Assembly: GCA_964569945.1 (NCBI GenBank)
Contig: CAZMWI010000001.1
Span: 23,565 to 82,921 of the forward strand
Source of the DNA: an uncultured Ignavibacteriaceae bacterium
Lineage (GTDB): Bacteria > Zixibacteria > MSB-5A5 > GN15 > PGXB01
DNA length: 59,357 nucleotides
Reading direction: 5' to 3'
Shown one piece after another: positions 1 to 33,831 of this stretch (position 1 is its first letter; each line of letters begins with the position of its first letter). The position numbers and the translations under genes are program-made. The notes below the pieces were generated by a model. The model was not told the origin of the DNA and ran no database searches. It saw only the letters and a program-made list of their open reading frames with translations.

Positions 1-417
1 CAGGCGGTTTTGTATATACAGCTCCAGGCTTTGTTTGTCGGGGCGCTGCTGGTGATCGTCTACGCCGGGGCAATTCTGGTGCTGTTTTTGTTTGTCATCA
101 TGCTTTTGAATCTCAGGGGAGAGAAGTTCGGGCACGAACGCAGTAAAGTCAGCCTGGCGACCAAGCTGGTCTTTTCCTTCCTGATGATTGTCGAGCTGGC
201 GGCGATCGCACATTCGGCTTCGAATTCAACGGGCTTGTCGGGTACGACTGAAACGCTAAGCCCCGGTTTCGGGAGTGTCCCGCCGGTGGCGGAACTGCTG
301 TATACAAAGTACCTGTTTCCGTTCGAACTGACTTCAATATTGCTGCTGGTTGCGGTAGTCGGTGCCGTCATGATGGCACGGCGCGATAAAATCGACAGAG
401 AAAAGGACGTGGTATGA
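1..417 (+). CDS. nuoJ: NADH-quinone oxidoreductase subunit J, C-terminal part (5' end lies outside the window)
   Basis: The frame is open from base 1. The hydrophobic VYAGAILVLFLFVIMLLN segment is typical of NuoJ/ND6. The stop overlaps the nuoK start (ATGA), and nuoK-L-M-N follow in order. Confidence 0.85.
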   Translation, partial: QAVLYIQLQALFVGALLVIVYAGAILVLFLFVIMLLNLRGEKFGHERSKVSLATKLVFSFLMIVELAAIAHSASNSTGLSGTTETLSPGFGSVPPVAELLYTKYLFPFELTSILLLVAVVGAVMMARRDKIDREKDVV

Positions 418-716
418 TCCCGGTTACTCATTATCTGATATTGAGCGCGATGCTGTTCGTGATCGGCGTCTCCGGTGTCATCATTTCGCGGAATTTGATT
501 GTGATGTTCATGTCTATCGAACTGATGCTCAACGCAGGCAACCTGGCGATTATAGCTTTTTCGCGGTCATTGAATCTCATGGACGGGCACGTTTTCGTCT
601 TTTTGATTCTGGCCGTGGCGGCGGCCGAAGCCGCGGTCGGGCTGGCCATTATTATTGCACTGTTCAGAAACCGGGAGTCGATCAACGCTGATACGTTCAG
701 CTTGTTGAAAAGGTAA
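414..716 (+). CDS. nuoK: NADH-quinone oxidoreductase subunit K
   Basis: A 100-aa, three-TM protein with the conserved LMLNAGNL and AAAEAAVGLAI motifs of NuoK/ND4L. It sits between nuoJ and nuoL. Confidence 0.93.
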   Translation: MIPVTHYLILSAMLFVIGVSGVIISRNLIVMFMSIELMLNAGNLAIIAFSRSLNLMDGHVFVFLILAVAAAEAAVGLAIIIALFRNRESINADTFSLLKR

Positions 717-721
717 GGCGC

Positions 722-2659
722 ATGGATCATTCGTTATATCTGATCATTTTGTTTCCGTTGGTGGGATTCCTGCTCAACGGGCTTTTGCTCGGTCGCCTTA
801 ACAAGAAATTGATTTCCCTTATAGGTTGCGGATCGGTCGGCCTGTCCTTTCTGTGGGGTCTGAAGACGTTTTTTAATATTCTGGCCGTACCGGAAACAGA
901 GCGGCTTTTCAAGGAAGTGCTTTTCACGTGGATTCCGGCCGGCGTTTTCAATGTTAATTTCGGTTTGATGTTCGACCCGTTGTCGGCGGTGATGGTGCTG
1001 GTGGTCAGCGGCGTCGGATTTTTGATTCATGTCTATTCGATCGGCTATATGCACGATGATCCGGGCTATGGCCGGTATTTCACATATCTTAATCTGTTCG
1101 TGTTTTCCATGCTGACCTTGGTTCTGGCCGATAATTATCTCCTGATGTTTGTCGGTTGGGAGGGGGTCGGGCTTTGCAGCTACCTGCTGATCGGTTTCTG
1201 GTTTGAAAAGAAATCGGCATCCGATGCCGGGAAGAAGGCATTCATCGTCAACCGTATCGGTGATTTCGGATTTATACTGGGCCTGTTCATTATATTCTGG
1301 CAGGTGGGATCCCTCGATTTCACAACCGTATTCGAAAGAGCGCCTCATATATTCGTGGCCGGAGGAAGCCTGATTACGGCGGCGACCCTGCTTCTGTTCC
1401 TCGGTGCGACCGGTAAGTCTGCCCAGATACCACTTTTTGTCTGGCTGCCCGACGCTATGGAAGGCCCGACGCCGGTGTCGGCGCTCATACACGCGGCGAC
1501 AATGGTCACGGCCGGGGTGTATATGATAGTCAGGTCGAACGTGCTGTACTTAATGGCACCGACGACGCTGGCGGTGGTTGCGATAATAGGCACGGCTACG
1601 GCACTTATGGCGGCGACAATCGCCCTGACTCAAAACGATATAAAGAGAGTGCTGGCTTATAGTACGGTCAGTCAACTTGGATATATGTTTGTCGCCTGCG
1701 GCGTAGCGGCGTTCTCGGCGGGGATTTTCCACCTGATGACCCACGCCTTTTTCAAAGCTCTGCTGTTTTTGGGTTCGGGTTCGGTAATACACGCCATGGC
1801 CGGGCAGCAGGATATGCGTTATATGGGCGGGCTCAAAAAGCCGATGAAAACCACTTTCATAACGTTTCTGTTCGCGACGCTGGCCATCTCCGGGATCCCG
1901 GGCTTGTCGGGATTCTTCTCCAAAGACGAAATTTTGTGGAAGTCGTTTTCGTCGGATTACGGCTCGCCGGTAATTTGGGCGATAGGCTTATTCACGGCTC
2001 TGTTAACGGCGTTTTACATGTTCCGGCTGGTGTACCTTACGTTCTACGGCGAACCGCGAATGGACGAGGAAACGAAACACCACCTGCACGAATCCCCTAA
2101 AGTAATGACGGTGCCGCTGTCAATTTTGGCGGTCCTTTCGATTATCGGCGGATGGGTCGGTATACCGCACGTGCTGGGCGGGGACAACCGCTTCGAAAGA
2201 TTCCTGGAGCCCGTGATAGGTTCGATGAATTCCGGTGGCGGTGAACACGCGCTGGCTTCGGCCGGAACCGATACGGGCACGGAAATGGTCTTAATGATCG
2301 GTTCAGTCGTCCTGATTCTTATATCCATATATGCCGCTTATTATCTGTATTTGAAAAACATCGCGGTGGTCGGGAAGATCAGGAAAGCCCTGTCGGGATT
2401 GCATAAAATTTTATTGAATAAGTACTATGTCGATGAAATATACGGCGCAACCGTAGTCCGGCCGCTGGTTAACGGATCGATCTTCCTTTGGAAAATAATC
2501 GACGTTTTGATAATCGATGGTATCGCCAACGGACTGGCGGCGCTAATTGGATTCGTCTCCAGCGACGTGCGGGGGATGCAGACCGGTAATTTGAGAACGT
2601 ACGTTACCGTATTTCTGGGCGGTGCGATTGTGCTTATCGGGTATTTTATTTTGAGATAA
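722..2659 (+). CDS. nuoL: NADH-quinone oxidoreductase subunit L
   Basis: A 645-aa polytopic membrane protein with Mrp-antiporter-like motifs (WEGVGLCSYLLIGFW, GKSAQIPLFVWLPDAMEGPTPVSALIHAATMV). Its length and C-terminal extension are typical of NuoL. Confidence 0.95.
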   Translation: MDHSLYLIILFPLVGFLLNGLLLGRLNKKLISLIGCGSVGLSFLWGLKTFFNILAVPETERLFKEVLFTWIPAGVFNVNFGLMFDPLSAVMVLVVSGVGFLIHVYSIGYMHDDPGYGRYFTYLNLFVFSMLTLVLADNYLLMFVGWEGVGLCSYLLIGFWFEKKSASDAGKKAFIVNRIGDFGFILGLFIIFWQVGSLDFTTVFERAPHIFVAGGSLITAATLLLFLGATGKSAQIPLFVWLPDAMEGPTPVSALIHAATMVTAGVYMIVRSNVLYLMAPTTLAVVAIIGTATALMAATIALTQNDIKRVLAYSTVSQLGYMFVACGVAAFSAGIFHLMTHAFFKALLFLGSGSVIHAMAGQQDMRYMGGLKKPMKTTFITFLFATLAISGIPGLSGFFSKDEILWKSFSSDYGSPVIWAIGLFTALLTAFYMFRLVYLTFYGEPRMDEETKHHLHESPKVMTVPLSILAVLSIIGGWVGIPHVLGGDNRFERFLEPVIGSMNSGGGEHALASAGTDTGTEMVLMIGSVVLILISIYAAYYLYLKNIAVVGKIRKALSGLHKILLNKYYVDEIYGATVVRPLVNGSIFLWKIIDVLIIDGIANGLAALIGFVSSDVRGMQTGNLRTYVTVFLGGAIVLIGYFILR

Positions 2660-2660
2660 T

Positions 2661-4241
2661 ATGGAACAACAGATATTGACATTGGTGACCTTTTTCCCGC
2701 TTGTGGGCGTAATATTGCTACTATTCGTGCCGCGTGAGCGGGCCGACACCGTCAAGGCGGTGGCTCTTATTATAGCATTCATTACGTTTTTATGGTCGCT
2801 GTGGATGTATGCCATGTTCGAGCCGATCGCCAACGGCATGCAGTTCGAGGTCAATGTCCCGTGGATAGCCGCGTTTGGCATACACTACCATCTCGGCATC
2901 GACGGCATCTCTCTGTTGCTGATAATGCTGACGACAATTTTGACCGTCATCGCCCTGATTTCATCGTGGACGTCAGTGCAGACGTCGGTCAAAGGGTACT
3001 ATATATCGCTGCTATTGCTTGAAACCGGCATGATCGGTGTGTTCGTCGCCCTCGATCTGTTCCTGTTTTACGTTTTCTGGGAAGCGATGCTTGTCCCGAT
3101 GTATTTCATTATCGGGGTCTGGGGCGGTCCGAGAAAACTGTATGCCGCGATCAAGTTCGTGCTGTTCACCATGTTCGGTTCCTTGCTGATGCTGGTGGCG
3201 CTTTTATACCTGTTCTTTATGTACCACGGCTATTCCGGTGAGTATTCGTTCGACCTGTTGAAATTGTATCAAATGCCGATTCCGCTCGGCGCTCAAACAT
3301 ATATGTTCCTGGCTTTTGCACTGGCTTTCGCAATCAAAGTGCCGATCTGGCCGTTCCATACCTGGCTGCCGGACGCTCACGTCCAGGCGCCGACCGCCGG
3401 TTCGGTCATACTGGCCGGTGTTTTGCTGAAGATGGGCACGTACGGTTTCGTGCGTATCTGCCTGCCGATGTTTCCGGAAGCGACCCTGCAGTTCGTTCCG
3501 TTCATATCCATACTGGCATTGATAGGCATCATATACGGCGCGCTGGTGGCGATGGTACAAAGAGACGTCAAATCGCTGGTAGCGTTTTCGTCGGTGTCAC
3601 ATTTGGGATTTGTCATGCTCGGGATGATGGCGCTGAACGTGCAGGGACTGGAAGGTTCGGTCATACAAATGATCAACCACGGTATTTCAACCGGTGCGCT
3701 GTTCCTGATAGTCGGCATGATCTATGAGCGCAGGCATACGCGGCTGATCGCCGATTTTGGAGGATTGTCGAAATCTATGCCGGTGTTTTCGACCTATTTC
3801 ATGATCGTGGCGCTGTCGTCGATCGGTCTTCCTCTGACCAACGGCTTTGTGGGCGAATTTCTAATCCTGCTGGGCACGTACAAAGCCAATCCAACCTATG
3901 CCATTATCGGGGCGTCGGGGGTCATACTGGCGGCGTGTTATATGCTCTGGATGTTGCAGCGCGTTATTTTCGGAAAAGTGACCAACCCGGCCAATGAAAA
4001 TGTCAAAGATTTAAATATGCGTGAACGATTGATTCTAATCCCGCTGGTCATACTGATTTTCTGGATCGGTGTTTACCCGAAGCCGTTTTTCGATCGTATA
4101 GAGCCGGCGGTTAAGAATCTCGTAACGATGGTACATAAATCCGACAGTAGTATGAATCTGTCTGAATCACACAAGCCCGACAACGTAGAATGTTCACCCG
4201 ACGGGAAAATTTGTGTGATAAAGAAGAAAGCGAGTAACTGA
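2661..4241 (+). CDS. nuoM: NADH-quinone oxidoreductase subunit M, with an extra Cys-containing C-terminal tail of about 35 aa
   Basis: A 526-aa protein with the NuoM/ND4 motifs FAIKVPIWPFHTWLPDAHVQAPTAGSVILAGVLLKMG. The tail HKSDSS...ECSPDGKICVIKKKASN lies beyond the usual end of the family. Confidence 0.93.
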   Translation: MEQQILTLVTFFPLVGVILLLFVPRERADTVKAVALIIAFITFLWSLWMYAMFEPIANGMQFEVNVPWIAAFGIHYHLGIDGISLLLIMLTTILTVIALISSWTSVQTSVKGYYISLLLLETGMIGVFVALDLFLFYVFWEAMLVPMYFIIGVWGGPRKLYAAIKFVLFTMFGSLLMLVALLYLFFMYHGYSGEYSFDLLKLYQMPIPLGAQTYMFLAFALAFAIKVPIWPFHTWLPDAHVQAPTAGSVILAGVLLKMGTYGFVRICLPMFPEATLQFVPFISILALIGIIYGALVAMVQRDVKSLVAFSSVSHLGFVMLGMMALNVQGLEGSVIQMINHGISTGALFLIVGMIYERRHTRLIADFGGLSKSMPVFSTYFMIVALSSIGLPLTNGFVGEFLILLGTYKANPTYAIIGASGVILAACYMLWMLQRVIFGKVTNPANENVKDLNMRERLILIPLVILIFWIGVYPKPFFDRIEPAVKNLVTMVHKSDSSMNLSESHKPDNVECSPDGKICVIKKKASN

Positions 4242-4453
4242 TGCCCGATGTGACGATTTATACCAAGCCCGGCTGTCCGTACTGCGCGGCGGCCAGGGAG
4301 CATTATCGAGACATCGGAGTGGACTATAAGGAAATCGATGTTTATACCGTCAAAGGCGCCAAAGACGAGGCGATCCGGCTCGCCGGTGGCAAGTCTATCG
4401 TGCCGGTCATTGTCGAAGACGGCAAGGTGCAAATCGGTTTCGGCGGAGGCTGA
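4241..4453 (+). CDS. Glutaredoxin-like thioredoxin-fold protein (CPYC). Possibly a selenoprotein extending to 4462 if TGA 4451-4453 is read as Sec.
   Basis: The 70-aa sequence MPDVTIYTKPGCPYCAAAREHY...VPVIVEDGKVQIGFGGG has a glutaredoxin/NrdH-like layout. The ATG overlaps the nuoM TGA (TGATG). Downstream reads TGA GGG ATT TAA. Confidence 0.85.
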   Translation: MPDVTIYTKPGCPYCAAAREHYRDIGVDYKEIDVYTVKGAKDEAIRLAGGKSIVPVIVEDGKVQIGFGGG

Positions 4454-4464
4454 GGGATTTAATA

Positions 4465-4495
4465 GGTTTGGCGTCAGTTTGACGTCGTAATAACC
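4465..4495 (+). other. Hairpin immediately 3' of the grx-like TGA. Candidate bacterial SECIS element, or alternatively an intercistronic stem-loop.
   Basis: Lower stem GGTT (4465-4468) pairs with AACC (4492-4495). After an asymmetric internal loop, the upper 7-bp stem GGCGTCA (4470-4476) pairs with TGACGTC (4480-4486) with one G.U pair. The apical loop is GTT (4477-4479). The structure starts 11 nt after the TGA. Confidence 0.4.
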
Positions 4496-4505
4496 GGGAA
4501 AAGCT

Positions 4506-5951
4506 ATGGATATCAGATCTGCGGCAATTGATTTTGGTTTACTGACACCCCATTTGATAATCATCATTGCGGGGATGGCTATTCTTCTGCTCGGCAATAT
4601 GATTCGCAGCCGGGGATTGATGGCGGTACTGTCGGTCGGGGCCATGGTGATCGGACTGATTTATGCCGTCATGCAATGGGCCATGCCTCAGTCGGGCTTT
4701 TACGGGATGGTCGTTGTCGATAATTTCTCGGTCTTTTTCAGCATGATATTCATTATGACCGGGATTATCACCATATTGATGTCGCGGGATTACCTGATCG
4801 CCAAAGGTATCGAGAGTCATGAATATTATGTCATGATACTTTTCGCGACGGTCGGCATGATGCTGATGGCATCGAGCACCGATCTGCTGGTGATATTTAT
4901 TGGGCTTGAAATAATGTCGGTACCGCTGTACGTGATGGCCGGTCTGGCGCGGCACAGCAATTTGTCCAACGAATCGGGCGTGAAGTATTTCATCATGGGT
5001 GCTTTCGCCAGCGGATTTCTCGTCTACGGTATCGCGCTGATTTATGGTGCCACCGGGACAACCGATCTGCGGCGTATCCTGGCCGATTTCGCTTTCTTCA
5101 AAACGCAATCGCAAATGCTGCTGTATTCGGGAGCCATAATGGTTCTCGCGGCCTTTTCGTTCAAGGTGGCGGCGGTGCCGTTCCATATGTGGGTTCCGGA
5201 CGTCTATGAGGGTGCACCGACGCCGGTTACGGGATATTTCTCGGTCGGACCGAAGGCGGCCGGTTTCGCGGCTTTGCTGAGAATTTTTATATTCGGATTC
5301 GGTCAGTTTACCGACCTCACCACGGTTTTCTGGATACTGGCCGTACTTACCATGACAATCGGAAACATCCTCGCGATTTTCCAAAATAACATCAAAAGAA
5401 TGCTGGCGTATTCCTCGATCGCTCATGCCGGATATATACTGGTCGCCCTGACGACCGGCGGACAGGGAGCAGTCTCGTCGGCGGTGTACTATCTGGCGGC
5501 GTACATGTTCTTCAACCTCGGCGGCTTCGCCATCATCACATTGATCGATAGCCGGACCGGGGGCAACAATCAGATCGATGATATCAAAGGACTGTCCGGC
5601 AAACATCCGTTTCTGGCGGCGATTCTTACGCTGTTCATGTTCGCACTGGCGGGCTTTCCGCCGACGGCCGGCTTTATGGGCAAGTTCTTTATATTTTCGC
5701 AGGCGGTCAAAAGCGGTTTTATCTGGCTGACTATAATAGCAGTGCTCAACAGTTTGATTTCGGTGTACTATTATTTAAGAGTCGTGGTCGCGGCGTTCTT
5801 CATGAAACCGGACAAGGAGTTCGCGCCGGTATCGTATAAGCCCGGTATTATTCTGGTACTATTGATTACCGTTGCGGGGACTCTGGCGCTGGGTGTTATC
5901 CCGCAGTTCTGGCTTGGGTTGGCCAAGCTTGCTACATTTTCTGTCATTTAA
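4506..5951 (+). CDS. nuoN: NADH-quinone oxidoreductase subunit N
   Basis: A 481-aa polytopic protein with NuoN/ND2 motifs (FKVAAVPFHMWVPDVYEGAPTPVTGYF, KRMLAYSSIAHAGY). It is the last gene of the nuo cluster. Confidence 0.93.
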   Translation: MDIRSAAIDFGLLTPHLIIIIAGMAILLLGNMIRSRGLMAVLSVGAMVIGLIYAVMQWAMPQSGFYGMVVVDNFSVFFSMIFIMTGIITILMSRDYLIAKGIESHEYYVMILFATVGMMLMASSTDLLVIFIGLEIMSVPLYVMAGLARHSNLSNESGVKYFIMGAFASGFLVYGIALIYGATGTTDLRRILADFAFFKTQSQMLLYSGAIMVLAAFSFKVAAVPFHMWVPDVYEGAPTPVTGYFSVGPKAAGFAALLRIFIFGFGQFTDLTTVFWILAVLTMTIGNILAIFQNNIKRMLAYSSIAHAGYILVALTTGGQGAVSSAVYYLAAYMFFNLGGFAIITLIDSRTGGNNQIDDIKGLSGKHPFLAAILTLFMFALAGFPPTAGFMGKFFIFSQAVKSGFIWLTIIAVLNSLISVYYYLRVVVAAFFMKPDKEFAPVSYKPGIILVLLITVAGTLALGVIPQFWLGLAKLATFSVI

Positions 5952-6018: not shown

Positions 6019-8751
6019 TCAGGGGATGAAAAAGCAGGGATCATCACCTTCACCATATATAGTGTCTATCAGGTATAGTATATCAAGCAGGTTGAGAGTA
6101 CCATCGCAGTTGACGTCGCCCATTGCAGGCGGTGTCGGGTCCGGGCCGTCCCCGTATATGGCGTCGATCAGGAACAGAATATCAATCAGGTTAAGCGTGC
6201 CGGAATAATCAACGTCGCCGGACATAATCGGGTTGATCGCATTGTTTCCGAACCGTACCGCCGACCCATCGGTGACTATATGGCCCGACGGTATGCCGGC
6301 CTGTACGAAATCCTCGAACCTGCATGGTCCGCCGCTCAGGCCTATTAATGCGGTCGAGGCCAGGCCGGAGATGCCGACCGATTGGAACTGAGCGTTTATA
6401 TCTCCGTCGCTCGTAAGTATAACCTCGAAGGACGTCAGGGTGTCCAGTGAATTATTGAAGTTGCCCATTTGATACCAGAGAATGATAACGGAATCATTGG
6501 TCGGGCTGTTGTAACGATAGATATCGCCATGCCCGGTGCTGAGTTCCGCCGCTTCGATCACGAGGTCGTTCCAGAATACCGGGATAAAAGTCTGGAATGG
6601 AGTATCATCAAGGGAGAACCCGGAGTAATAACCGTTGGAGTTTACTTCGGCATCGGTGAACGATATGGCCCCGTTGACGCCGATATAAACCTGGTTGTAT
6701 GTCTGACCGTAATAGTTGAAATCAAAGGGCAGGGGGTATGGTCCAGCGGTGCCGTCGTCGAGGCGGGCGGAATAGTCATAGGAATTGTAGTATTGAGTAC
6801 GTGGGATAATACCCCCGATAGTCGTAATGTCTATCCAGTTGTACTGTGGGCCGTCGACGTCATTATTATCGGTTGCAGTATACGTGGTGTCCTCGGTGCA
6901 CGGCACGGTGAAAAATACCGGCAGATATGCGAGCGAATCGAGCGATCCACCCGATGGGCCCCAGGATATTTCGATAATTCCCTTGTGTCTGGCAAAACCT
7001 TCTGGAAATCCAGACGCGTCGATAGTTATACCAAGGTCGACCGAATCCGAAGCCGCGATCTGTCCCGACAGGGGAGACGCGCCCAGCCAGCTTGAGGATT
7101 TGGCCAGGCTGTCCGGAATATTAATCGTGAAATCGAGCGGGTTCGAGCCAGAGCCGTTGTGCAGCCAGGCAGTCAGGTTGTTCACCGATTCGGCCACCAC
7201 CGCCGTATCGAAATAGATCGGCGTTACGGATAGCGACGGGGGAGGAGCGATCGTTGCGAATGCGGCCTGCAAGTCGGGCCGGGGGCCTATGTGCTGGGTT
7301 ATATTGAACTGCTGAGGGGAGCCGGTTGCTATCAGAACGTCGCGTAAGTAATCCGCGCCGGCCGGAACACCGTAGGCGTTTTTATAATATCCCTGAAGGC
7401 AGGTAGCCGCACCCATCACAATCGGCGATGCGCCCGAGGTGCCGGCGAATTCCGCCGTATATTCCTGATTGGGATCGCCGCCGCCGTCGAATAAAGAGCC
7501 GTAACCGGTCGTGTAAATCTCTTCGCCCTGTCCCTGAAGATTGACTCTTTCACCATAATTCGACCAGCTCATGCGAGAGCGATCAATTCCCGACGTGCCC
7601 GTGGGCGGAGCCCCGCCGCCGACCATTATGGCGTGGGAATTGCGATACGTCGTATCGAACAGCTGGCCATAAAGATGCGCGTCAAGGTCTTCGGCGCCGT
7701 TGCCGGCCGGTTCGATAACTATCATTCCGGCCGCCCAGGCGTATTGATAAGCATCGAATACATCCTGCCAGTATTCCATGCAGACATAGCCAAGCTGGTC
7801 TTGTCTTACCTGGAAATTATACCTCGGACCCGGCGCGTGCAGCTCTATCAGCATCAGGTCGCCCGGCTGCATATGGTCGAGGGCCAGAAAGACACCGGCG
7901 GCTATGCTCATCGCCGTAACCGAAATCAAACCAAGGTCGGCACCAGGACAAATTCCGGTCACACCATAGCCGTTGTCTCCGGCGATCATTTCGCCGATGA
8001 CGGCTGTTCCGTGCTGGCCGTAACTTCCCCCTTCGGGCGTTATGACTGCCCCGACGGCCTTGTCGAGGTCTTCATGGTTTTCGGTCCATGCGTATTCAAT
8101 GTCGATTATTTTAACCCCTGTACCGTCACCGCCCGGTTGAGAGTTGGCATACACGGCATCGATTCCGTCGGGAGCAGTATACAGGTAGTATTGGTTCGGT
8201 TCAAAATCGGGCGTCGGCGGAGCGATATCCCCGGCCTCTTCCGGGACTGGCTGAGGGTAAGCGATTTCTACCATATCAAGTTGATTTAAATCATTGACCA
8301 GTTTTTCGGCCTCGGCCGAACCGGAAACATCTATTGTATAATACAAACTGAAATCGGCCAACTCGCGGCCCGATGACGCTTCAAGTGACGCTTTAAGATT
8401 CTTGAGGAACTTATTGGGTCTGTTGATTAACGGTTTCTTGAAATCTTTCGCCGATGAGCCCAAGGCGCTTCTTAATTGCGTCAGATCAGATTTATTCGCC
8501 GCAGAAACGAATTCATTCCCGCTGAGCTGTATGTCAAGACCTTCTTTGAATTTCACTATGACTTTCGATGTATTGGCCTCGGACGAGACGCTTATATTTG
8601 AAGGTTTGTCGGGGACGCGCCGCGCCTTCAGATGATCCGGTGTGATGGGTTTATTGTCCGCATGAAATGTCATGGCCGGGGCGGAAACCGCCGCCATAAA
8701 TATTAAAGACAATATCAAAGATATCAGTCGTGGCAGATTTTTGGCTGTCAA
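6019..8751 (-). CDS. Secreted subtilisin-like (S8) serine protease with a large beta-rich middle region and a C-terminal dockerin
   Basis: The N-terminal signal peptide is LISLILSLIFMAAVSAPA. Catalytic motifs are VKIIDIE (Asp), HGTAVIGEM (His) and GTSGASPIV (Ser). A propeptide-like VIVKFKEG segment is present. The C-terminus carries two dockerin repeats. Confidence 0.9.
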   Translation of the reverse strand: MTAKNLPRLISLILSLIFMAAVSAPAMTFHADNKPITPDHLKARRVPDKPSNISVSSEANTSKVIVKFKEGLDIQLSGNEFVSAANKSDLTQLRSALGSSAKDFKKPLINRPNKFLKNLKASLEASSGRELADFSLYYTIDVSGSAEAEKLVNDLNQLDMVEIAYPQPVPEEAGDIAPPTPDFEPNQYYLYTAPDGIDAVYANSQPGGDGTGVKIIDIEYAWTENHEDLDKAVGAVITPEGGSYGQHGTAVIGEMIAGDNGYGVTGICPGADLGLISVTAMSIAAGVFLALDHMQPGDLMLIELHAPGPRYNFQVRQDQLGYVCMEYWQDVFDAYQYAWAAGMIVIEPAGNGAEDLDAHLYGQLFDTTYRNSHAIMVGGGAPPTGTSGIDRSRMSWSNYGERVNLQGQGEEIYTTGYGSLFDGGGDPNQEYTAEFAGTSGASPIVMGAATCLQGYYKNAYGVPAGADYLRDVLIATGSPQQFNITQHIGPRPDLQAAFATIAPPPSLSVTPIYFDTAVVAESVNNLTAWLHNGSGSNPLDFTINIPDSLAKSSSWLGASPLSGQIAASDSVDLGITIDASGFPEGFARHKGIIEISWGPSGGSLDSLAYLPVFFTVPCTEDTTYTATDNNDVDGPQYNWIDITTIGGIIPRTQYYNSYDYSARLDDGTAGPYPLPFDFNYYGQTYNQVYIGVNGAISFTDAEVNSNGYYSGFSLDDTPFQTFIPVFWNDLVIEAAELSTGHGDIYRYNSPTNDSVIILWYQMGNFNNSLDTLTSFEVILTSDGDINAQFQSVGISGLASTALIGLSGGPCRFEDFVQAGIPSGHIVTDGSAVRFGNNAINPIMSGDVDYSGTLNLIDILFLIDAIYGDGPDPTPPAMGDVNCDGTLNLLDILYLIDTIYGEGDDPCFFIP
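6040..6219 (-). other. Dockerin type-I-like module (two Ca-binding repeats) at the C-terminus of the S8 protease
   Basis: The duplicated EF-hand-like segments GDVDYSGTLNLIDILFLIDAIYG and GDVNCDGTLNLLDILYLIDTIYG are characteristic of dockerins. Confidence 0.8.
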
Positions 8752-25960: not shown

Positions 25961-28030
25961 TTGAGAGCTTGCGTGGACAAACCAGAAACCCAAATAAAAC
26001 AGGGAAGCGGGACGGCTTTGAGCCGCGAGGATAAAACTGCATTCAAGCTGGTTTCATCTTATGAGCCGCGCGGCGACCAACCGGCCGCGATCGACCAACT
26101 TGTGGCCGGTCTGAATCGCGGCGACCGACACCAGACTTTGCTGGGAGTAACCGGGTCAGGGAAGACTTTCGCCATCGCCAATGTTATCGCTCGCTATGGT
26201 CGTCCGACCCTGGTGATTTCGCACAATAAAACTCTGGCGGCCCAGCTTTACGGCGAGCTGAAATCTTTCTTCCCTCACAATGCCGTCGAATTTTTTATCA
26301 GCTATTACGATTATTATCAGCCGGAGGCATATCTACCGACTACGGATACTTATATAGAGAAAGACACATCGATGAACGAGGATATCGACCGTCTCCGCCT
26401 GCGAGCGACAGCCTCGCTTCTGGAGCGCGATGATGTCATAATCGTGTCGTCGGTTTCCTGCATATACAGCCTGGGGTCGCCCAGGGAATACGCCGAACAA
26501 TTGTTATTTATGGAACTGGGCCAGGAATTTGAGCGTGACCGCATTATCAGGGCTCTGATAGACATTCATTATAACCGCAACGATATCGACTTTTCGAGAG
26601 GGAATTTCCGTGTCCGGGGAGACGTTATCGAGTTGATCCCGGCTTATCAGGAGACGGCTATACGAATAGAATTGTTTGGCGATACGATCGAACGCCTGAC
26701 CGAATTCCAACCGCTGACAGGTGAAATTATCTCCGAGCGCAATAAGATAGCCATTTATCCGGCCAAGCACTTCATTACGAGTCGTCCGCAGATGGAACAA
26801 GCGGTGATTACCGTAAGAGCCGAACTGGAAGAGAGGCTGGCGAATTTCCGAGCGGCGGGAAAATTGCTGGAAGCCCAAAGGCTCGAATCGCGGACCAATT
26901 ACGATCTCGAAATGATGCAGGAGATAGGGTATTGCAGCGGTGTCGAGAACTATTCGCGGCATTTGACAGGACGCAAACCGGGTGAGAGGCCGTACACTCT
27001 GATCGACTTTTTCCCCGATGATTTCGTCACCATAATCGATGAATCCCATCAGACCATTCCGCAGATAAGGGGTATGTTTGCCGGAGATCATTCCCGCAAA
27101 GAAGTCCTGGTCGAACACGGTTTCCGGTTGCCGTCGGCTCTGGACAACCGGCCGCTCTTTTTCGATGAATTCGAAAGCCTGACGCAAAAGACAATATATG
27201 TCTCGGCGACTCCGGCCGACTTCGAGCTGGAGCAATCGGGCGGGGTGATTGTCGAGCAGGTCATTCGTCCGACCGGTTTGTGCGATCCGGAAATATCCAT
27301 AAGGCCGCTGGCGACACAGGTCGATGATTTGATCGATGAAATTCGCCGTCGAGCAGAAAAGAAAGAGCGCATTCTCGTCACGACCCTCACCAAGCGTATG
27401 GCCGAGGATTTGGCCAATTACCTGAGCAAAATAAATATCCGGGTTCGCTACCTTCACAGCGAAATCGACGCCATTGACCGGACCGAAATCATTCGAGATT
27501 TAAGGCTGGCCGAATTCGACGTCCTGGTTGGAATAAACTTGTTGCGCGAAGGATTAGATTTGCCGGAAGTGTCTCTCGTAGCTATATTGGATGCGGACAA
27601 AGAAGGATTTTTGAGATCGGAGAGATCGTTGATACAGACGGCCGGACGGGCTGCCCGCAATAAGAACGGACAGGTGATTTTTTATGCCGACAAAATTACC
27701 GATTCGATGAAGAAAGCTATCGACGAAACTGAACGCCGCCGCACCCGGCAGATGGCTTATAATAAAGAACACAATATTGATCCGGAGACGATTTTTAAAA
27801 CGCGGGACGAGATTCTTCAGGCGACAAGATTCGCCGATTCCAAAACGCCGGAAACCGAGGAATTCGATAAACCGGATCATTTCGTGCACATGACGGCCGA
27901 AGACCAGATTGCATTTTTGATGAAAGCGATGAACAAGGCCGCGCGCAACCTCGAATTCGAAACGGCGGCCGCGATACGCGATGAAATAAAAAAGATCAAA
28001 TCCGATTTGAAAAACAGGCGCAAAAGGTGA
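25961..28030 (+). CDS. uvrB: Excinuclease ABC subunit B
   Basis: Contains [17 protein letters not shown], Walker [10 protein letters not shown], helicase motifs and a C-terminal UVR domain ([15 protein letters not shown]). The start codon is uncertain: TTG at 25961 or GTG at 25973. Confidence 0.95.
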
Positions 28031-28902
28031 TGTTAATGAATAAGCATAAAATGTATGTTATTTTATTTTCGGCATTAATCGCAGTATTTGTTTTGGCGAA
28101 TTCATGCTCTAATCCGACGGTTTATAACTCATCATATTACGACCAAATTAAGCTTTTTCTGAGTGATCCCGGTGAAGGAAGCGAATTGTTCACGACAGAC
28201 CTGTATACCGATAAGCCGTTTGAACGCGACGGTTCATCGAATAAATATTATTACGCATTCGATTCCGTCATTTCGCGTACAGACATAACAATTGACAGTG
28301 GTACGCACGAAGTCCCTCCGTATTCCGGTGTTCATACAGCCTGGGCCGAAATAAAAAATGCGTATTTCGGGCAAATAATGCGAATTGATATCGGCGGAGA
28401 AACGACCCATGCTTATGATTATCAGTCTATCGTCACGCGAAAAGCGTTTTTTATTAAAATATTCAACGACGGTTATCAGTATCATGGATGGAGATTCTGG
28501 GGATTTAACAGCCCCGGCAATAATTTCGGCGCAGCCAGGACATTAAATGACGGTCACTATCAAACATCGCTTGATGGTCAAGGTATGAATCGAGAATATC
28601 TGCTTTATGATACTCTGGGAATATATGATATAGGGGACAGCCTGACGTATGCCAGCAATGATGACGACGTTATTTTTGTCCGAATAGATTCATCCACGAT
28701 ACGCGGTTTGAGAACGAAATCTTCCGCCGGACGATATAAAACCGGCTGGAGAATCGGCAATACGGCGGATCCCTTCAATCGCCTCATTTTTATCGAAACG
28801 CCGGTTGATTATGACGTCGATACCACAAGCGAGGACCCGTTAATCGTGGATACGACGAAAATTTACTCGTATGGTTACGTTGCCTTTTATAAAGCCAAAT
28901 AA
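28030..28902 (+). CDS. Hypothetical lipoprotein
   Basis: Has a lipobox-type signal (VFVLANSC). The ATG shares one base with the uvrB TGA. I recognise no family. Confidence 0.6.
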   Translation: MLMNKHKMYVILFSALIAVFVLANSCSNPTVYNSSYYDQIKLFLSDPGEGSELFTTDLYTDKPFERDGSSNKYYYAFDSVISRTDITIDSGTHEVPPYSGVHTAWAEIKNAYFGQIMRIDIGGETTHAYDYQSIVTRKAFFIKIFNDGYQYHGWRFWGFNSPGNNFGAARTLNDGHYQTSLDGQGMNREYLLYDTLGIYDIGDSLTYASNDDDVIFVRIDSSTIRGLRTKSSAGRYKTGWRIGNTADPFNRLIFIETPVDYDVDTTSEDPLIVDTTKIYSYGYVAFYKAK

Positions 28903-29867: not shown

Positions 29868-32800
29868 TTATTTTAGCAGAAGCATTTTTCTGCTTCGCAC
29901 TTTGTCACCGGCGGATATCCGGTAGAAATATATGCCCGAGGCCGCTTCATTTCCGTGATTATCGCGGCCGTTCCATTGGATCGAATGATTTCCCGCCTTT
30001 TGGAATTCATCGACAAGTTTTATAACGCGTCGACCGAGTATGTTGTAAATATCGATTTGCACGTCGGCCGAACGCGGGAGCGAATATGTGATAGTTGTAG
30101 TCGGGTTAAATGGGTTGGGATAGTTCTGGTGCAGCACGAATCGGTCGGGAATTATTTTCGAAGGATCATCGACGCCGGTTGGATGATCGTCCATTATGGC
30201 GGAAAATAGAGCGGCGCTCTGGGAGCGGGGAAGGTACCACGGATGAAAACCAAAAGCGTAAATCGGGCGACCGTAGGCATTGAACCTGATGCCGCAGGGA
30301 AATCCCTCGAACAATGAAGTCTGCGGCGATACGGCCTCGTACGTGTATATAGCTTCCGCTCCGCCGCGCGGGTACATGACCGCCGTTTGCGGGGGAGTGG
30401 CATAGGGCCAGAAAGTCGTCTGCTGAGCAGGGAAATTCCACCAATCGTAAGTCGTGTCAACCTGCAGGTTATCGAAGGCCGTTGTTAGCGCCGTCGTACC
30501 GACAAAGCCGCCGATAGTATCGACGCCATTGCCGATCATATGATTGAAATACAGTCCAACGCCGTTAGTGAACACCGAATCCAGCCCGAAAAGGTCGTAT
30601 TCTTTCGAGCCCGGGCTGAAGCGCCGTGTTAACGTATCAAGACCGTATGGAACAACGGCGTTCGCGAAATTTCCGAAATAGATAACTGTCCCGCCGGAGC
30701 GGATATAATCCCGGAGTATTTTATTAAACGGCACTATGAAATTGTACCGGTCGATAATCGGCTTCAGGAGATTTTCGTCGATAACGACGAATCTGTACGG
30801 CGCCATCGCCGACCATGAAAAACATTCTTTGTTGAGACATACGTCGTGACATCCGTCATTATCGCAAATGTACCCCTGAGCAGAGTCGGCCATAATGAAA
30901 TAGTCAACGGTAAAATCGGATAGAACGTCGTTGTAATAGTTTATCACCGTATCGATCGATTCTAAATTCCGGTCGTCACCGGTATTTTCGAGCAGAATTA
31001 AAATATCGTTGGGCATGTAGCTGGTGGCATATATCGGAATCGATCTCGACGTGTCCGACTCCTGCCCGGCGTCGTCGACGGCCGTCACCAGGTAGTACAA
31101 TTCGGCGTCGGTAATCGGGTCGGTTAAAATTGTATCCGGCGCAGAAACCTGTGCGTACGGTGCCACGCCGTAAAAATAATATCGGGCAGTGTCATCCCCG
31201 TTAACTATCACGTGCAGACTGTCGTACGGACGCCCGTCGATGGGTCGGGTCGTAATGCGGGGTTTGTATCTTAACGAATAATCGTAGGCGCCTATATATC
31301 GATAGATATTGTAATGATCGATGTCGTCCAGCGGGGGCGGGGTCCAGTGTATAGTAACCTCATCGACATTGCCGATATAGGTCGGGCCGGGTTGAGTCAC
31401 CGGGGCCTCGGGAGTGCCGGGTGTGAAATATCGGGGCCGCGACCGGGGCGATTCCGAAAAGAAATTGACGGCCGTAACCGAGACGAAATAAGTCTGACCG
31501 TCTGTCAGCCCGTCTAAAGCATATGAGGTGTCCGTAACCGGACCGTTGGTGTTGGCCAGTGTCATGCCGGCTGTGTCGACGTCGTAGCGATAGACGGTAT
31601 CCCTGAATATAACCTGGCTGTCCGGTACCGGTTTGATATAGACATTGTATCCTTCGATATCGACGTTGTTTTTGGGCAGCCACGAAATTTCGGCCGACGT
31701 CTGTCCGGTTTCGGTGATTTGCAGCCCCTGGATTTCGCCGGGCCGCAGGGCCAGGGCGTAATCTGATTCATAAAGCAGCCGGGCCGCCCGGAAATTTTCG
31801 ATCAGGTCGCTGAAATCGAGCGTGCCGTAAAAATTGGCCGGATTTTGGTAGTCAAAGCGGTTATGATAATCCCAGGGATTCTGGTGAACATCCCGCCCGG
31901 CTGTAAAAGCCACAACGACATGGACCGAGTCGCCGGGTGCAATCTGGTAGGGGCCGTACCCGATTACGAATCTGGTATCAATGCCTATGGCCAAAGTTGG
32001 GCCGCTTGTTCCTGCAGGAAGCCAGCCCGAATCGGAATTAATAACGGCCGCAAACATCTGATCATAGTCGATTTCATCGTTAGACATTAAATAATATCTG
32101 TCGTTGGCGTTGATAGGATTGCCCAGTTCGCCGTCGGCCATATAACGCGGCTCCTGAGGAGGGTTCCCAAGATACTGGGGGCCGTAATTGGGCGAGATTC
32201 GATCCCACCAATTGAACGATGTGTCGGCCGCGGGCGGGTCGGAATAAACCAGACCGGCTCCGATGGCGCCGCGGATACTGTTGTCATCCCACGAAACATT
32301 GTTATGCGGGTCGCCGTCGTTATCCATAATATACGCTATCCCCTCAGAACGGATGTACCCGGCCAAATCATCAGAATATCCAAGAGGAGTGTTGCTGTCC
32401 ATTACATCCGCATCGACATACAGCCCCACATATGCATCCTGGATCGGAGCCTCACCGATATTGGTTATTTCCAGTTCCACAAGTATGAAATTATCATTTG
32501 GGGAATATGTCCAGCTTCTGGATGTTTCCGTAACGTGGATGCTGTTTAACTTGCGGAAATCCGGCTCCTGCCAGACCGGCGGGGGGAAGTTGTCATCGTA
32601 TTCGGCCTTAAACTGCTTGTCTCCCGGTCCACTGACCAATGTTACCGATCCACCGCTGTCGACCGGCAGATAATGACTACCGCTGTAATATGCATCGGAC
32701 ATACCCATCGAGACAAGGGTGTCACCATTGATAACCCCACCTACCCAGAGCCCGGCCCCCCAAAGGTATGAATGCCTGCTGCCTCTCGGGAAAGTGAAGG

Positions 32801-33089
32801 TTCTCAGTGCCCGGCCGGTTTCAGGATCAATGCTTATTGACATATTCGATCCGCCGAAATTCCCGACACTCGTAACCGTCATCTCGACCCCACCGATGGA
32901 ATGAAATCCGACCGGTTGCGGCCAATGTGTATCGTTTTGATTGGCCGAAAGCGACGTCTGTGGCATGCCGCGGTTTTCGGCTTCTTCATAAGGGCCAACA
33001 TTGCCGCTTATGGCTTCAACCCGTGCTGCAAACACCAACAAAACGATGCATATTATACCAACAAAAGGAAGATAGCGAATAACCTTCAA
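29868..33089 (-). CDS. Large secreted protein with fibronectin-III-like modules and a T9SS type-A C-terminal sorting domain; function unknown
   Basis: A 1073-aa protein with signal peptide VGIICIVLLVFAARVEA. FN3-like segments include GLQITETGQTSAEISWLPKNNVDIEGYNVYIKP and VTIHWTPPPLDDIDHYNIYRY. The C-terminal tail is LHQNYPNPFNPTTTITYSL...SGIYFYRISAGDKVRSRKMLLLK. Confidence 0.85.
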   Translation of the reverse strand: MKVIRYLPFVGIICIVLLVFAARVEAISGNVGPYEEAENRGMPQTSLSANQNDTHWPQPVGFHSIGGVEMTVTSVGNFGGSNMSISIDPETGRALRTFTFPRGSRHSYLWGAGLWVGGVINGDTLVSMGMSDAYYSGSHYLPVDSGGSVTLVSGPGDKQFKAEYDDNFPPPVWQEPDFRKLNSIHVTETSRSWTYSPNDNFILVELEITNIGEAPIQDAYVGLYVDADVMDSNTPLGYSDDLAGYIRSEGIAYIMDNDGDPHNNVSWDDNSIRGAIGAGLVYSDPPAADTSFNWWDRISPNYGPQYLGNPPQEPRYMADGELGNPINANDRYYLMSNDEIDYDQMFAAVINSDSGWLPAGTSGPTLAIGIDTRFVIGYGPYQIAPGDSVHVVVAFTAGRDVHQNPWDYHNRFDYQNPANFYGTLDFSDLIENFRAARLLYESDYALALRPGEIQGLQITETGQTSAEISWLPKNNVDIEGYNVYIKPVPDSQVIFRDTVYRYDVDTAGMTLANTNGPVTDTSYALDGLTDGQTYFVSVTAVNFFSESPRSRPRYFTPGTPEAPVTQPGPTYIGNVDEVTIHWTPPPLDDIDHYNIYRYIGAYDYSLRYKPRITTRPIDGRPYDSLHVIVNGDDTARYYFYGVAPYAQVSAPDTILTDPITDAELYYLVTAVDDAGQESDTSRSIPIYATSYMPNDILILLENTGDDRNLESIDTVINYYNDVLSDFTVDYFIMADSAQGYICDNDGCHDVCLNKECFSWSAMAPYRFVVIDENLLKPIIDRYNFIVPFNKILRDYIRSGGTVIYFGNFANAVVPYGLDTLTRRFSPGSKEYDLFGLDSVFTNGVGLYFNHMIGNGVDTIGGFVGTTALTTAFDNLQVDTTYDWWNFPAQQTTFWPYATPPQTAVMYPRGGAEAIYTYEAVSPQTSLFEGFPCGIRFNAYGRPIYAFGFHPWYLPRSQSAALFSAIMDDHPTGVDDPSKIIPDRFVLHQNYPNPFNPTTTITYSLPRSADVQIDIYNILGRRVIKLVDEFQKAGNHSIQWNGRDNHGNEAASGIYFYRISAGDKVRSRKMLLLK
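29871..30140 (-). other. T9SS type-A (Por secretion) C-terminal sorting domain
   Basis: The NYPNPFNP...G.Y.YR......K(M/L)..(L)K pattern covers the last ~90 aa. Confidence 0.8.
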
Positions 33090-33638: not shown

Positions 33639-33831
33639 AAAGTGACTTTCTTTAGTTTACTACGTACTGGTACTTGCGAGTTAAATGCCTCATCGAGATT
33701 TAGAATCGGGCAAGTGAGAACACATTTGCAAAGACATGGTTTTCTACCCGAGAGAGGAACGTCAATGTTACGATATAATGGCGCGAAACTCTGTACCGGC
33801 ACTTTTCCACAAATATGTTTCTGGAGGAAAA

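What the first reader, a model, noticed from the sequence alone, without database searches (positions are those of the whole stretch)
4128..4505. Candidate selenoprotein (U-x-x-stop glutaredoxin-like) embedded between nuoM and nuoN
**Seen in the sequence**
- A 70-aa CPYC thioredoxin-fold ORF has its ATG overlapping the nuoM stop (TGATG at 4239-4243), so it is translationally coupled inside a complex I operon where nuoM normally runs straight into nuoN.
- The ORF ends ...QIGFGGG, then TGA (4451-4453) GGG ATT TAA (4460-4462). Reading TGA as selenocysteine gives a C-terminus GGG-U-G-I-stop.
- Eleven nt after the TGA a hairpin begins: lower stem 4465-4468/4492-4495, internal loop, 7-bp upper stem 4470-4476/4480-4486, apical loop GUU.

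**Established knowledge**
- Bacterial Sec insertion needs a stem-loop shortly 3' of the UGA with G/U in the apical loop.
- Sec very near a C-terminus next to Gly residues is a known redox-centre design, as in the GCUG motif of thioredoxin reductase.
- I recall a curated protein-family name for glutaredoxin-like (seleno)proteins with Sec or Cys as the third-from-last residue (Uxx-star). I cannot verify that here.

**Inference**
This could be a Sec-containing redox partner dedicated to complex I. NuoM here also has an unusual ~35-aa tail with two Cys (ECSPDGKIC, 4128-4238) directly upstream.
Basis: partly seen in the sequence, partly recalled or inferred. Interest (0 to 1): 0.8.

Follow-up and report, generated by a model that had tools for sequence, protein, structure and literature searches.

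The report
Selenocysteine glutaredoxin inside complex I operon
A tiny glutaredoxin-like gene between two respiratory complex I genes almost certainly reads its apparent stop codon as selenocysteine; the protein family is already catalogued, but its fixed place inside the complex I operon of Zixibacteria and relatives appears not to have been discussed.

Summary
ORF 4241-4450 is a 70-aa CPYC glutaredoxin fold whose ATG overlaps the nuoM stop. It is followed by TGA-GGG-ATT-TAA and a hairpin that starts 11 nt after the TGA.

NCBIfam NF041212 (Uxx-star glutaredoxin-like (seleno)protein) scores 105.8 bits against a cutoff of 66, and 112.7 bits over the whole 70-position profile when C-G-I is appended.

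In 80 related genome loci plus the window:
- The first stop is TGA in 81/81.
- It is followed by Gly (70/81, all four Gly codons) and a hydrophobic residue.
- A real stop follows in 79/81 (TAA, TGA and TAG all used).
- 79 of 82 distinct downstream sequences carry a 5-10 bp hairpin with G-U in the loop, 19-28 nt from the UGA, against 2-3% in controls. The stem shows compensatory changes at every pair.

The nuoM-grx-nuoN order is kept in 58 of the 80 loci (Zixibacteria, Ignavibacteria, Calditrichota). The other 22 loci (Actinomycetota, Chloroflexota, Firmicutes and others) lack it.

Sec machinery could not be checked in this genome. selB sits beside the gene in two Anaerolineae loci. The NuoM Cys pair is not conserved.

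Verdict: a real selenoprotein and a member of a known family. The complex I link rests on synteny only.

The parts
1..2659 (+). nuoJ (partial, 1-417), nuoK (414-716) and nuoL (722-2659): upstream genes of the complex I operon
   Evidence: NCBIfam hits to NuoJ, NuoK (115.5 bits) and NuoL (TIGR01974, 789.6 bits)
2661..4241 (+). nuoM, stop TGA at 4239-4241
   Evidence: TIGR01972, 636.6 bits, residues 6-489
4128..4238 (+). NuoM C-terminal extension (residues 490-526) with ECSPDGKIC
   Evidence: Lies beyond the end of the NuoM profile. A tail of similar length is common in relatives, but the Cys pair is seen only in the window, L003, L008, L042 and L062.
4239..4243 (+). TGATG stop/start overlap of nuoM and the glutaredoxin-like gene
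   Evidence: Overlapping or near-abutting stop/start junctions (ATGA, TAATG, TGATG) recur in most nuo-linked loci.
4241..4462 (+). Uxx-star glutaredoxin-like selenoprotein gene: 73 codons if UGA is read as Sec, with the real stop TAA at 4460-4462
   Evidence: NF041212 at 105.8/112.7 bits against cutoff 66. PF00462 at 52 bits. AF2 model pLDDT 91.9 with order beta-alpha-beta-alpha-beta-beta. TM 0.82 to solved glutaredoxins.
4274..4285 (+). CPYC active-site codons (Cys12, Cys15)
   Evidence: Translation. C12, P13, Y14 and C15 are invariant in 28 homologues.
4451..4453 (+). UGA read as selenocysteine (residue 71)
   Evidence: TGA in 81/81 loci. It is followed by Gly, then Phe/Ile/Tyr/Val, then a stop, with synonymous codon variation.
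4465..4495 (+). SECIS-like hairpin, apical loop G4477-U4478-U4479, filling most of the spacer before nuoN
   Evidence: Fold. An equivalent hairpin is present in 79/82 relatives against 1.8-2.6% in controls. There are compensatory changes at all 7 stem pairs. No terminator-like T run.
4506..5951 (+). nuoN, last gene of the operon
   Evidence: TIGR01770, 450.6 bits

Best explanation
The gene at 4241-4462 encodes a 73-residue glutaredoxin-fold selenoprotein of the Uxx-star family. It has a CPYC site at residues 12-15 and ends in a glycine-rich tail, GGG-Sec-Gly-Ile.

Decoding (inferred from the E. coli paradigm). When UGA 4451-4453 reaches the ribosomal A site, the hairpin that begins 11 nt downstream (4465-4495, G-U in the apical loop) recruits SelB carrying Sec-tRNA(Sec). 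Sec is inserted, two more codons are read, and translation ends at UAA 4460. Release factor 2 competes at the UGA, so a 70-residue form lacking selenium is probably made as well.

Expression (shown by sequence). The gene is translationally coupled to nuoM through the TGATG overlap and is transcribed inside the complex I operon.

Function (inferred). The Sec on the flexible tail works with the CPYC cysteines as a selenol/thiol redox centre. It probably swings between the active site and a substrate, much as the GCUG tail of mammalian thioredoxin reductase does. Because of the conserved gene order, the substrate or client is most likely complex I itself or something complex I produces, such as oxidised or thiol-modified cysteines or peroxide.
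For: - Family: NF041212 above its curated cutoff. The three extra residues extend the match to the full profile and add 7 bits.
- Recoding signature in 80 loci plus the window: first stop TGA 81/81; +1 Gly in 70/81 using GGA 30, GGC 21, GGT 10, GGG 9; +2 Phe 42, Ile 24, Val 7, Tyr 6; +3 a stop in 79/81 using TAA 35, TGA 29, TAG 15.
- TGA is an ordinary stop for 15 other genes in the window, so the genetic code is not reassigned.
- SECIS: 79/82 distinct sequences have a 5-10 bp hairpin with the loop starting 19-28 nt from the UGA and GU in the loop. GGUC is the commonest loop (28 cases). Controls give 1.8% for shuffles and 2.6% downstream of other long ORFs in the same loci.
- Covariation: all 7 stem pairs show double-sided changes, 91% of cells are paired, 0/500 shuffles reach the observed values, and slid controls are much lower.
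- Geometry matches the E. coli rule of a stem-loop 11 nt from the UGA with G23/U24 in the loop (PMC8659212).
- The signature also holds in the 22 loci that have no nuo genes, so it belongs to the gene, not to the operon.
- selB lies immediately upstream of the family member in L069 and L077.
- Cys aligns with the Sec position in a distant homologue (P0231 ...GFPGT-C-GV).
- The AF2 model shows a minimal Grx fold with a lower-confidence C-terminal tail.
- Synteny: nuoM-grx-nuoN in 58 of 80 loci, and a full nuoE..N operon in L003.
Against: - No selA, selB, selD or tRNA-Sec in the 59-kb window or within 10 kb of any nuo-linked locus. The rest of the genome could not be read.
- No Cys form was found among close relatives: none of 120 best proteins and none of 80 loci. 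An exact GFGGGCG[FI]-stop DNA pattern in metagenome contigs gave 26 hits, none of them a glutaredoxin.
- The window's hairpin alone is not more stable than shuffles.
- No Rfam family matches.
- The hairpins used for the covariation count were selected for forming a hairpin, so that count is partly circular. The independent control is.
- The complex I link is gene order only. Family members in other phyla sit next to unrelated genes: a histidine kinase, a protein with a CopZ-like metal-binding domain, a ResA-like oxidoreductase.
Confidence: 0.85

Rival explanations
1. TGA 4451 is simply the stop codon. The product is a 70-residue ordinary glutaredoxin, and the downstream hairpin is an mRNA stability, processing or translational-coupling element between the gene and nuoN.
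For: Public annotations give 70-residue proteins. The window hairpin is not unusually stable. No Sec machinery was seen in the sequence available.
Against: - The first stop is TGA in 81/81 loci, while the second stop uses all three codons.
- The two codons between them are conserved at the amino-acid level with synonymous variation.
- The hairpin with a GU loop at fixed distance is equally present in 22 loci without nuoN downstream.
- The curated profile extends three positions beyond GGG.
- There is no T run typical of a terminator.
Confidence: 0.04
2. It is a genuine selenoprotein, but a general cytoplasmic thiol/selenol oxidoreductase. Its position in the nuo operon is a lineage-specific insertion that gives convenient co-expression, with no specific action on complex I.
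For: The same family occurs in 22 of 80 loci in quite different neighbourhoods. The NuoM Cys pair that might have been a target is not conserved. No interaction data exist.
Against: The exact position between nuoM and nuoN, usually with overlapping stop/start, is kept across loci labelled Zixibacteria (27), Ignavibacteria (16), Calditrichota, GN15 and the FCB group. This holds even though protein identity falls to about 46-60%. That argues for selection on the linkage.
Confidence: 0.35
3. The C-terminal Sec, together with the two Cys, is mainly a metal or metalloid ligand (chaperone, sensor or detoxification role) rather than a redox relay.
For: [quoted passage not shown] In Thermoleophilia locus L057 the adjacent upstream protein carries a CopZ-like metal-binding domain.
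Against: Nothing metal-related flanks the gene in the nuo-linked loci. The canonical CPYC dithiol motif and Grx fold point to thiol-disulfide chemistry.
Confidence: 0.12

Closest known systems
Uxx-star family glutaredoxin-like (seleno)protein, NCBIfam NF041212 (umbrella of the UXX-star families of Haft and Tolstoy 2025, as listed in PMC13188914)
   Same: Score well above the curated cutoff. About 70-residue Grx fold. Sec at the third-from-last residue. NCBI already gives this name to Zixibacteria homologues that are 77-79% identical (P0017, P0019).
   Different: It passes none of the narrower family models convincingly. Family 1 scores 72.2 against 72 only with Cys substituted, and 65.7 otherwise. 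Family 2 scores 75.5 against 100. Family 3 scores 67.7 against 97. The nuoM/nuoN position is not mentioned in any text I could read. The primary paper is not held.
UXX-star selenoprotein family 1 ('distant Grx-like protein 1', NF041114)
   Same: Small Grx-like protein with a C-terminal U-x-x end.
   Different: The review lists it with a UxxT motif and two Sec residues. The window protein has CPYC and a single Sec.
C-terminal GCUG redox centre of mammalian thioredoxin reductase (own knowledge)
   Same: Sec two or three residues from the C-terminus, flanked by Gly, on a flexible tail next to a dithiol centre. This suggests a swinging-arm electron relay.
   Different: No sequence or fold relation. 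Here there is no adjacent Cys-Sec pair, the partner thiols are in a Grx CxxC motif on the same small domain, and there is no flavin.
E. coli fdhF-type bacterial SECIS
   Same: Stem-loop starting 11 nt after the UGA with G-U in the apical loop (PMC8659212). GGUC is the commonest loop in the family.
   Different: It lies almost entirely in the 3' untranslated spacer rather than in coding sequence, because only two codons follow the UGA. In the window the loop G is at +27 rather than +23. No bulged U was evaluated.
Sec-containing glutaredoxin of Clostridium oremlandii (the cGrx structures 4tr0, 4tr1 and 7c10 are its nearest solved relatives)
   Same: Glutaredoxin fold with TM 0.79-0.82. A glutaredoxin that uses selenium.
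   Different: According to the review, Sec in that protein is in the N-terminal U/CxxC/S active site. Here the active site is all-Cys and Sec is at the C-terminus. The window protein also lacks the C-terminal helix.
Mitochondrial Grx2 acting on complex I (own knowledge)
   Same: A glutaredoxin functionally tied to complex I thiol redox state. This is a possible functional analogue.
   Different: That link is biochemical, not genetic, and Grx2 has no Sec.

Membership tests
Uxx-star glutaredoxin-like (seleno)protein (NF041212) | Profile score at or above the curated cutoff (66 bits) | tested here: met
   105.8 bits for the 70-aa form. 112.7 bits with profile positions 1-70/70 covered when C-G-I is appended.
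Uxx-star glutaredoxin-like (seleno)protein (NF041212) | Glutaredoxin/thioredoxin fold with an N-terminal CxxC/S/T site | tested here: met
   PF00462 at 52.2 bits. CPYC invariant. AF2 pLDDT 91.9. TM 0.82 to solved Grx structures.
Uxx-star glutaredoxin-like (seleno)protein (NF041212) | Sec (UGA) or Cys as the third-from-last residue, followed by two residues and a stop | tested here: met
   TGA-GGG-ATT-TAA. The same layout occurs in 79 of 81 loci.
Bacterial selenoprotein (general criteria) | SECIS stem-loop shortly 3' of the UGA with G/U in the apical loop | tested here: met
   Hairpin at +15 to +45, loop GUU. Conserved in 79/82 sequences against 2-3% in controls. Covariation at 7/7 pairs.
Bacterial selenoprotein (general criteria) | Homologues with Cys aligned to the UGA position | tested here: inconclusive
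   None among 120 close proteins, 80 loci or an exact-motif metagenome scan. Distant homologue P0231 has Cys aligned at the Sec position. P0191 and P0166 have Cys at their own third-from-last residue but are offset by an indel in the alignment. P0257 and P0230 have Trp there.
Bacterial selenoprotein (general criteria) | selA, selB, selD and tRNA-Sec present in the same genome | not testable with these tools
   Absent from the window, and the rest of the genome is not available. selB is adjacent to family members in L069 and L077 only.
[quoted passage not shown] | Score at or above 72 bits; UxxT motif and two Sec residues (per PMC13188914) | tested here: not met
   65.7 bits as encoded, and 72.2 bits only with Cys substituted. 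The active site is CPYC with one Sec.
UXX-star (seleno)protein family 2 (NF041211) | Score at or above 100 bits; GxGU motif | tested here: not met
   74.3-75.5 bits. The GxGU motif itself (G-G-G-U) is present.
UXX-star (seleno)protein family 3 (NF047338) | Score at or above 97 bits | tested here: not met
   65.2-67.7 bits.
Classical glutaredoxin 3 / NrdH | Equivalog profile scores (TIGR02181 at or above 90; TIGR02194 at or above 85.75) | tested here: not met
   44.1 and 32.6 bits. The model lacks the C-terminal helix of classical Grx.
Complex I accessory subunit or dedicated factor | Physical association with, or specific action on, Nuo subunits | not testable with these tools
   Only gene order is available: nuoM-grx-nuoN in 58 of 80 loci.

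The most novel reading that the evidence does not exclude
In Zixibacteria, Ignavibacteria and Calditrichota, this Sec-tailed glutaredoxin would be a dedicated, selenium-dependent accessory component of respiratory complex I. It would be made in step with NuoM and NuoN and would keep the enzyme's cysteines reduced, remove oxidants formed at the enzyme, or assist its assembly. That would be the first selenoprotein wired into a complex I operon. Selenium supply, by setting the ratio of the 73-residue Sec form to the 70-residue truncated form, would then tune respiration.
Probability: 0.3. Interest if true: 0.7.

Novelty: new member of a known kind. Interest (0 to 1): 0.45.

Why it matters
- Annotation. 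Public records list these proteins as 70-residue 'glutaredoxin', so the selenocysteine and the last three residues are missing from the databases. The same correction applies to hundreds of Zixibacteria and Ignavibacteria genomes.
- Biology. A selenoprotein gene held between nuoM and nuoN across several phyla is a clear, testable hint that complex I in these largely uncultured bacteria has a selenium-dependent redox helper. Nothing comparable is described for bacterial complex I in the literature I could search.
- SECIS diversity. The 80-locus set is a clean natural example of a bacterial SECIS placed in untranslated RNA, because only two codons follow the UGA.

Tried and rejected
- Rfam scan of 4200-4600 at E up to 10: only two chance snoRNA hits and no SECIS family.
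- ARAGORN on the window and on 60 loci: no tRNA-Sec.
tblastn with SelB from L069 found only L069, L077 and an EF-Tu in L054.
- NCBIfam scan of 20 window proteins: no sel genes.
- Scan for other TGA-interrupted genes in the window: the only candidate with a long extension (48913-48915, minus strand) is the normal end of a D-aminoacyl-tRNA deacylase-like gene followed by non-coding sequence. One weak SECIS-like hit after uvrB is at the chance rate.
- Cys-form search by DNA pattern GGNTTYGGNGGNGGNTGYGGNWTYTRR in metagenome contigs: 26 hits, none a glutaredoxin.
- MAFFT alignment of the raw 48-nt downstream regions misaligned several clades, so I used loop-anchored analysis instead.
- The primary paper on UXX-star families (Haft and Tolstoy 2025) is not in the library. 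Whether it mentions the nuo context is unknown.
- Rejected: the idea that the NuoM tail Cys pair is the conserved partner, because it is not conserved.
- Rejected: an intrinsic terminator, because there is no T run and no scan hit.
Full report
**Observation**

The window begins inside a complex I operon: nuoJ (partial, 1-417), nuoK (414-716), nuoL (722-2659), nuoM (2661-4241) and nuoN (4506-5951). All are identified by NCBIfam profiles far above their cutoffs.

Between nuoM and nuoN lies a 70-codon ORF (4241-4450). Its ATG shares two bases with the nuoM TGA stop (aacTGATGccc). It translates to MPDVTIYTKPGCPYCAAAREHYRDIGVDYKEIDVYTVKGAKDEAIRLAGGKSIVPVIVEDGKVQIGFGGG. This is followed by TGA (4451-4453), GGG, ATT and TAA (4460-4462).

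RNAfold places a hairpin at 4465-4495:
- an 8-bp upper stem, 4469-4476/4480-4487
- apical loop GUU, 4477-4479
- a 4-nt bulge on the 3' side
- a 4-bp lower stem, 4465-4468/4492-4495

The hairpin starts 11 nt after the TGA. By itself it is no more stable than shuffled sequence (z = -0.62).

**Family**

The ORF matches Pfam Glutaredoxin (52 bits). More specifically it matches NCBIfam NF041212, 'Uxx-star family glutaredoxin-like (seleno)protein', at 105.8 bits against a curated cutoff of 66. Appending Cys-Gly-Ile for the three codons after GGG extends the match to all 70 profile positions and raises the score to 112.7 bits.

The narrower models are not passed. UXX-star family 1 scores 65.7 bits, or 72.2 against 72 with Cys substituted. 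Family 2 scores 75.5 against 100, and family 3 scores 67.7 against 97. Classical Grx3 and NrdH models are far below threshold.

A 2026 review lists the UXX-star families among predicted bacterial selenoproteins. It credits them to Zhang and Gladyshev 2008 and to Haft and Tolstoy 2025, and says their Sec may bind metals or unknown substrates (PMC13188914). The Haft and Tolstoy paper is not in the library.

An AlphaFold2 model (pLDDT 91.9) shows beta1-alpha1-beta2-alpha2-beta3-beta4 and then a lower-confidence tail. This is a minimal glutaredoxin fold without the usual C-terminal helix. It superposes on solved glutaredoxins at TM 0.82.

**Is the UGA decoded?**

The 120 closest database proteins all end ...GFGGG or a near variant. 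That is what gene callers produce if they stop at a recoded UGA. I fetched 80 loci from one-genome-per-species contigs and read the DNA. Counting the window, there are 81 sequences.

| Position | Result |
|---|---|
| First stop | TGA in 81/81 |
| Codon +1 | Gly in 70/81 (GGA 30, GGC 21, GGT 10, GGG 9) |
| Codon +2 | Phe 42, Ile 24, Val 7, Tyr 6 |
| Codon +3 | A stop in 79/81 (TAA 35, TGA 29, TAG 15) |

An invariant TGA, followed by two codons conserved at the amino-acid level with free synonymous change, followed by an unconstrained real stop, is the signature of a coding extension. It is not what a terminator codon looks like. TGA is a normal stop elsewhere in the window: 15 other genes end in TGA, against 23 in TAA and 7 in TAG.

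**SECIS**

Each of the 82 distinct downstream sequences folds into a local hairpin. I used a fixed criterion: at least 5 bp, loop starting 19-28 nt from the U of UGA, and GU in the loop.
- 79 of 82 sequences qualify.
- Only 75 of 4100 shuffles qualify (1.8%).
- Only 54 of 2078 regions downstream of other long ORFs in the same loci qualify (2.6%).

Loops are GGUC (28), AGUU (9), CGUGA (8), GUU (7), CGUGU (7) and similar.

Stem sequences differ widely. On the 40 tetraloop members:
- All seven pairs show changes on both sides.
- 91% of cells are paired.
- No shuffle out of 500 reaches the observed values.
- Slid registers collapse.

This count is partly circular, because those sequences were picked for forming a hairpin. 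The controls are the independent test.

The layout agrees with the E. coli rule: a stem-loop 11 nt from the UGA, with G23 and U24 in the apical loop contacting SelB (PMC8659212).

There is no T run and no terminator-scan hit at the hairpin. No Rfam model matches it.

**Cys homologues and Sec machinery**

No Cys form exists among close relatives. An exact-motif DNA scan of metagenome contigs for GFGGG-Cys-G-[FI]-stop gave 26 hits, none of them a glutaredoxin.

An exhaustive profile-free search of 1.84 billion representatives found more distant family members with other residues at or near this position:
- P0231 has Cys aligned exactly at the Sec position (...GFPGT-C-GV).
- P0191 and P0166 carry Cys at their own third-from-last residue (...GVG-C-AF, ...GQG-C-FV), although an indel offsets them in the alignment.
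- P0257 and P0230 have Trp there (...GFGGT-W-GV).

The window has no tRNA genes at all. None of the 20 window proteins scanned against NCBIfam is a sel gene. tblastn with SelD, SelA and SelB queries found nothing in the window or near any nuo-linked locus. The rest of this genome is not available, so the machinery test remains open.

In two Anaerolineae loci (L069, L077) the family member lies directly downstream of selB (TIGR00475, 340.7 bits).

**Context**

Of the 80 loci, 58 have the gene exactly between nuoM and nuoN. By record title these are:
- 27 Zixibacteria
- 16 Ignavibacteria
- one each of Calditrichota, GN15, 'FCB group' and Deferrimicrobium
- 11 unclassified

The start usually overlaps or abuts the nuoM stop (ATGA, TAATG, TGATG). 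The SECIS fills most of the roughly 50-nt spacer before nuoN.

The closest relative is L003, a Zixibacteria MAG with NuoM 87% identical. It has nuoE-F-G-H-I-J-K-L-M-grx-N, a full NADH-oxidising complex I.

The other 22 loci are Thermoleophilia and other Actinomycetota, Chloroflexota, Thermincola, Syntrophomonas, Acidobacteriota and Oligoflexia. They have no nuo genes nearby. The neighbours I scanned were varied: a PAS histidine kinase, a protein with a CopZ-like domain, a ResA-like oxidoreductase and selB. L054 is itself a HUGP/GUXX-star fusion selenoprotein rather than a free-standing member.

The recoding signature therefore belongs to the gene family, while the complex I linkage is specific to an FCB-group clade.

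NuoM in these operons commonly carries a 35-45 residue hydrophilic tail.

**Mechanism**

Shown:
- a Grx fold with an invariant CPYC
- an in-frame UGA with a conserved two-residue extension
- a conserved, covarying GU-loop hairpin at SECIS distance
- translational coupling to nuoM
- conserved operon position

Inferred from the bacterial paradigm:
- SelB with Sec-tRNA(Sec) binds the hairpin and inserts Sec71.
- Release factor 2 competes, so a 70-residue selenium-free form is also made. Recoding efficiency in E. coli is reported as 30-40% (abstract of PMC4513850).

Inferred from anatomy: Sec on a Gly-rich flexible tail cooperates with Cys12 and Cys15 as a selenol/thiol relay, comparable in principle to the GCUG tail of thioredoxin reductase (own knowledge). 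One point supports a Cys...Sec pair as the functional core. More distant members have only one active-site Cys (CxYT/S) yet keep a Cys at the C-terminal position (P0231) or end just before it as the Sec forms do (P0236, P0228).

Inferred from synteny only: the client is complex I or a product of it.

**Rivals**

- A plain stop plus a structural RNA element is very unlikely, given the codon statistics and the persistence of the signature outside nuo operons.
- A general redox role with merely convenient operon placement remains a serious alternative for function.
- A metal-ligand role, as suggested in the review, cannot be excluded.

**Novelty**

The selenoprotein family is curated. NCBI already names Zixibacteria homologues with the Uxx-star name (P0017, P0019), although the deposited proteins are still the 70-residue truncated forms.

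This is therefore a new member of a known kind. The conserved embedding in the complex I operon was not found in any paper I could search and is the part worth following up.

Noticed in passing
window 43232-46893 (minus strand), junction near 45410-45420: The SMC chromosome-segregation gene is split into two ORFs in different frames. The N-terminal part, 45418-46893, matches TIGR02168 positions 1-393. The C-terminal part, 43232-45412, matches positions 501-1180. This is a frameshift: either an assembly error or a pseudogene.
   Followed up: partly
L069:1351-3315 and L077:7681-9597: In two Anaerolineae MAGs the Uxx-star gene lies directly downstream of selB, the Sec-specific elongation factor, with a conserved coiled-coil-like ORF upstream of selB.
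   Followed up: partly
P0257 and P0230 (protein hits): Some distant family members have Trp (...GFGGT-W-GV) where others have Sec or Cys. This could be a TGA-to-TGG change or a gene-calling or genetic-code artefact.
   Followed up: no
L063:10214-10232, and proteins P0142, P0147-P0159: A separate glutaredoxin-like group ends ...SGWGDP[PL]RG at the called stop. In L063 that stop is TGA, followed by five codons (TITLD), TAA and a GUU-loop hairpin. This suggests another C-terminal Sec family with a longer tail.
   Followed up: no
L054:9596-10213: The Chloroflexia locus carries the HUGP/GUXX-star fusion selenoprotein (NF045501, 366 bits), next to a cluster of nine tRNA genes.
   Followed up: no
window 4128-4238 and the NuoM C-termini of the nuo-linked loci: NuoM proteins encoded next to the selenoprotein gene usually carry a 35-45 residue hydrophilic, poorly conserved C-terminal tail beyond the end of the NuoM profile. 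I did not test whether this tail correlates with presence of the selenoprotein gene.
   Followed up: partly
window 29868-33089 (minus) and 33736-41382 (plus): Two very large surface-type proteins. One is 1073 aa with fn3, FlgD_ig and a Por_Secre_tail (type IX secretion) sorting domain. The other is 2548 aa of PKD/Ig repeats ending in FlgD_ig. Both are consistent with an FCB-group organism.
   Followed up: no
window 6019-8751 (minus) and L003:11778-14513: A roughly 910-aa subtilase with a C-terminal dockerin domain lies convergent to nuoN. An ORF of matching size, position and strand is present in the closest relative.
   Followed up: no
window 49484-53701: A 1405-aa fusion of BadF/BcrA-type ATPase domains with a DUF2229 'CoA enzyme activase' domain.
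   Followed up: no
window 28028-28087 (downstream of the uvrB stop at 28028-28030): The only other gene end in the window that meets the SECIS-like hairpin criterion. The score is weak, only one codon follows before the next stop, and the region overlaps the next gene's start, so this is probably chance.
   Followed up: partly
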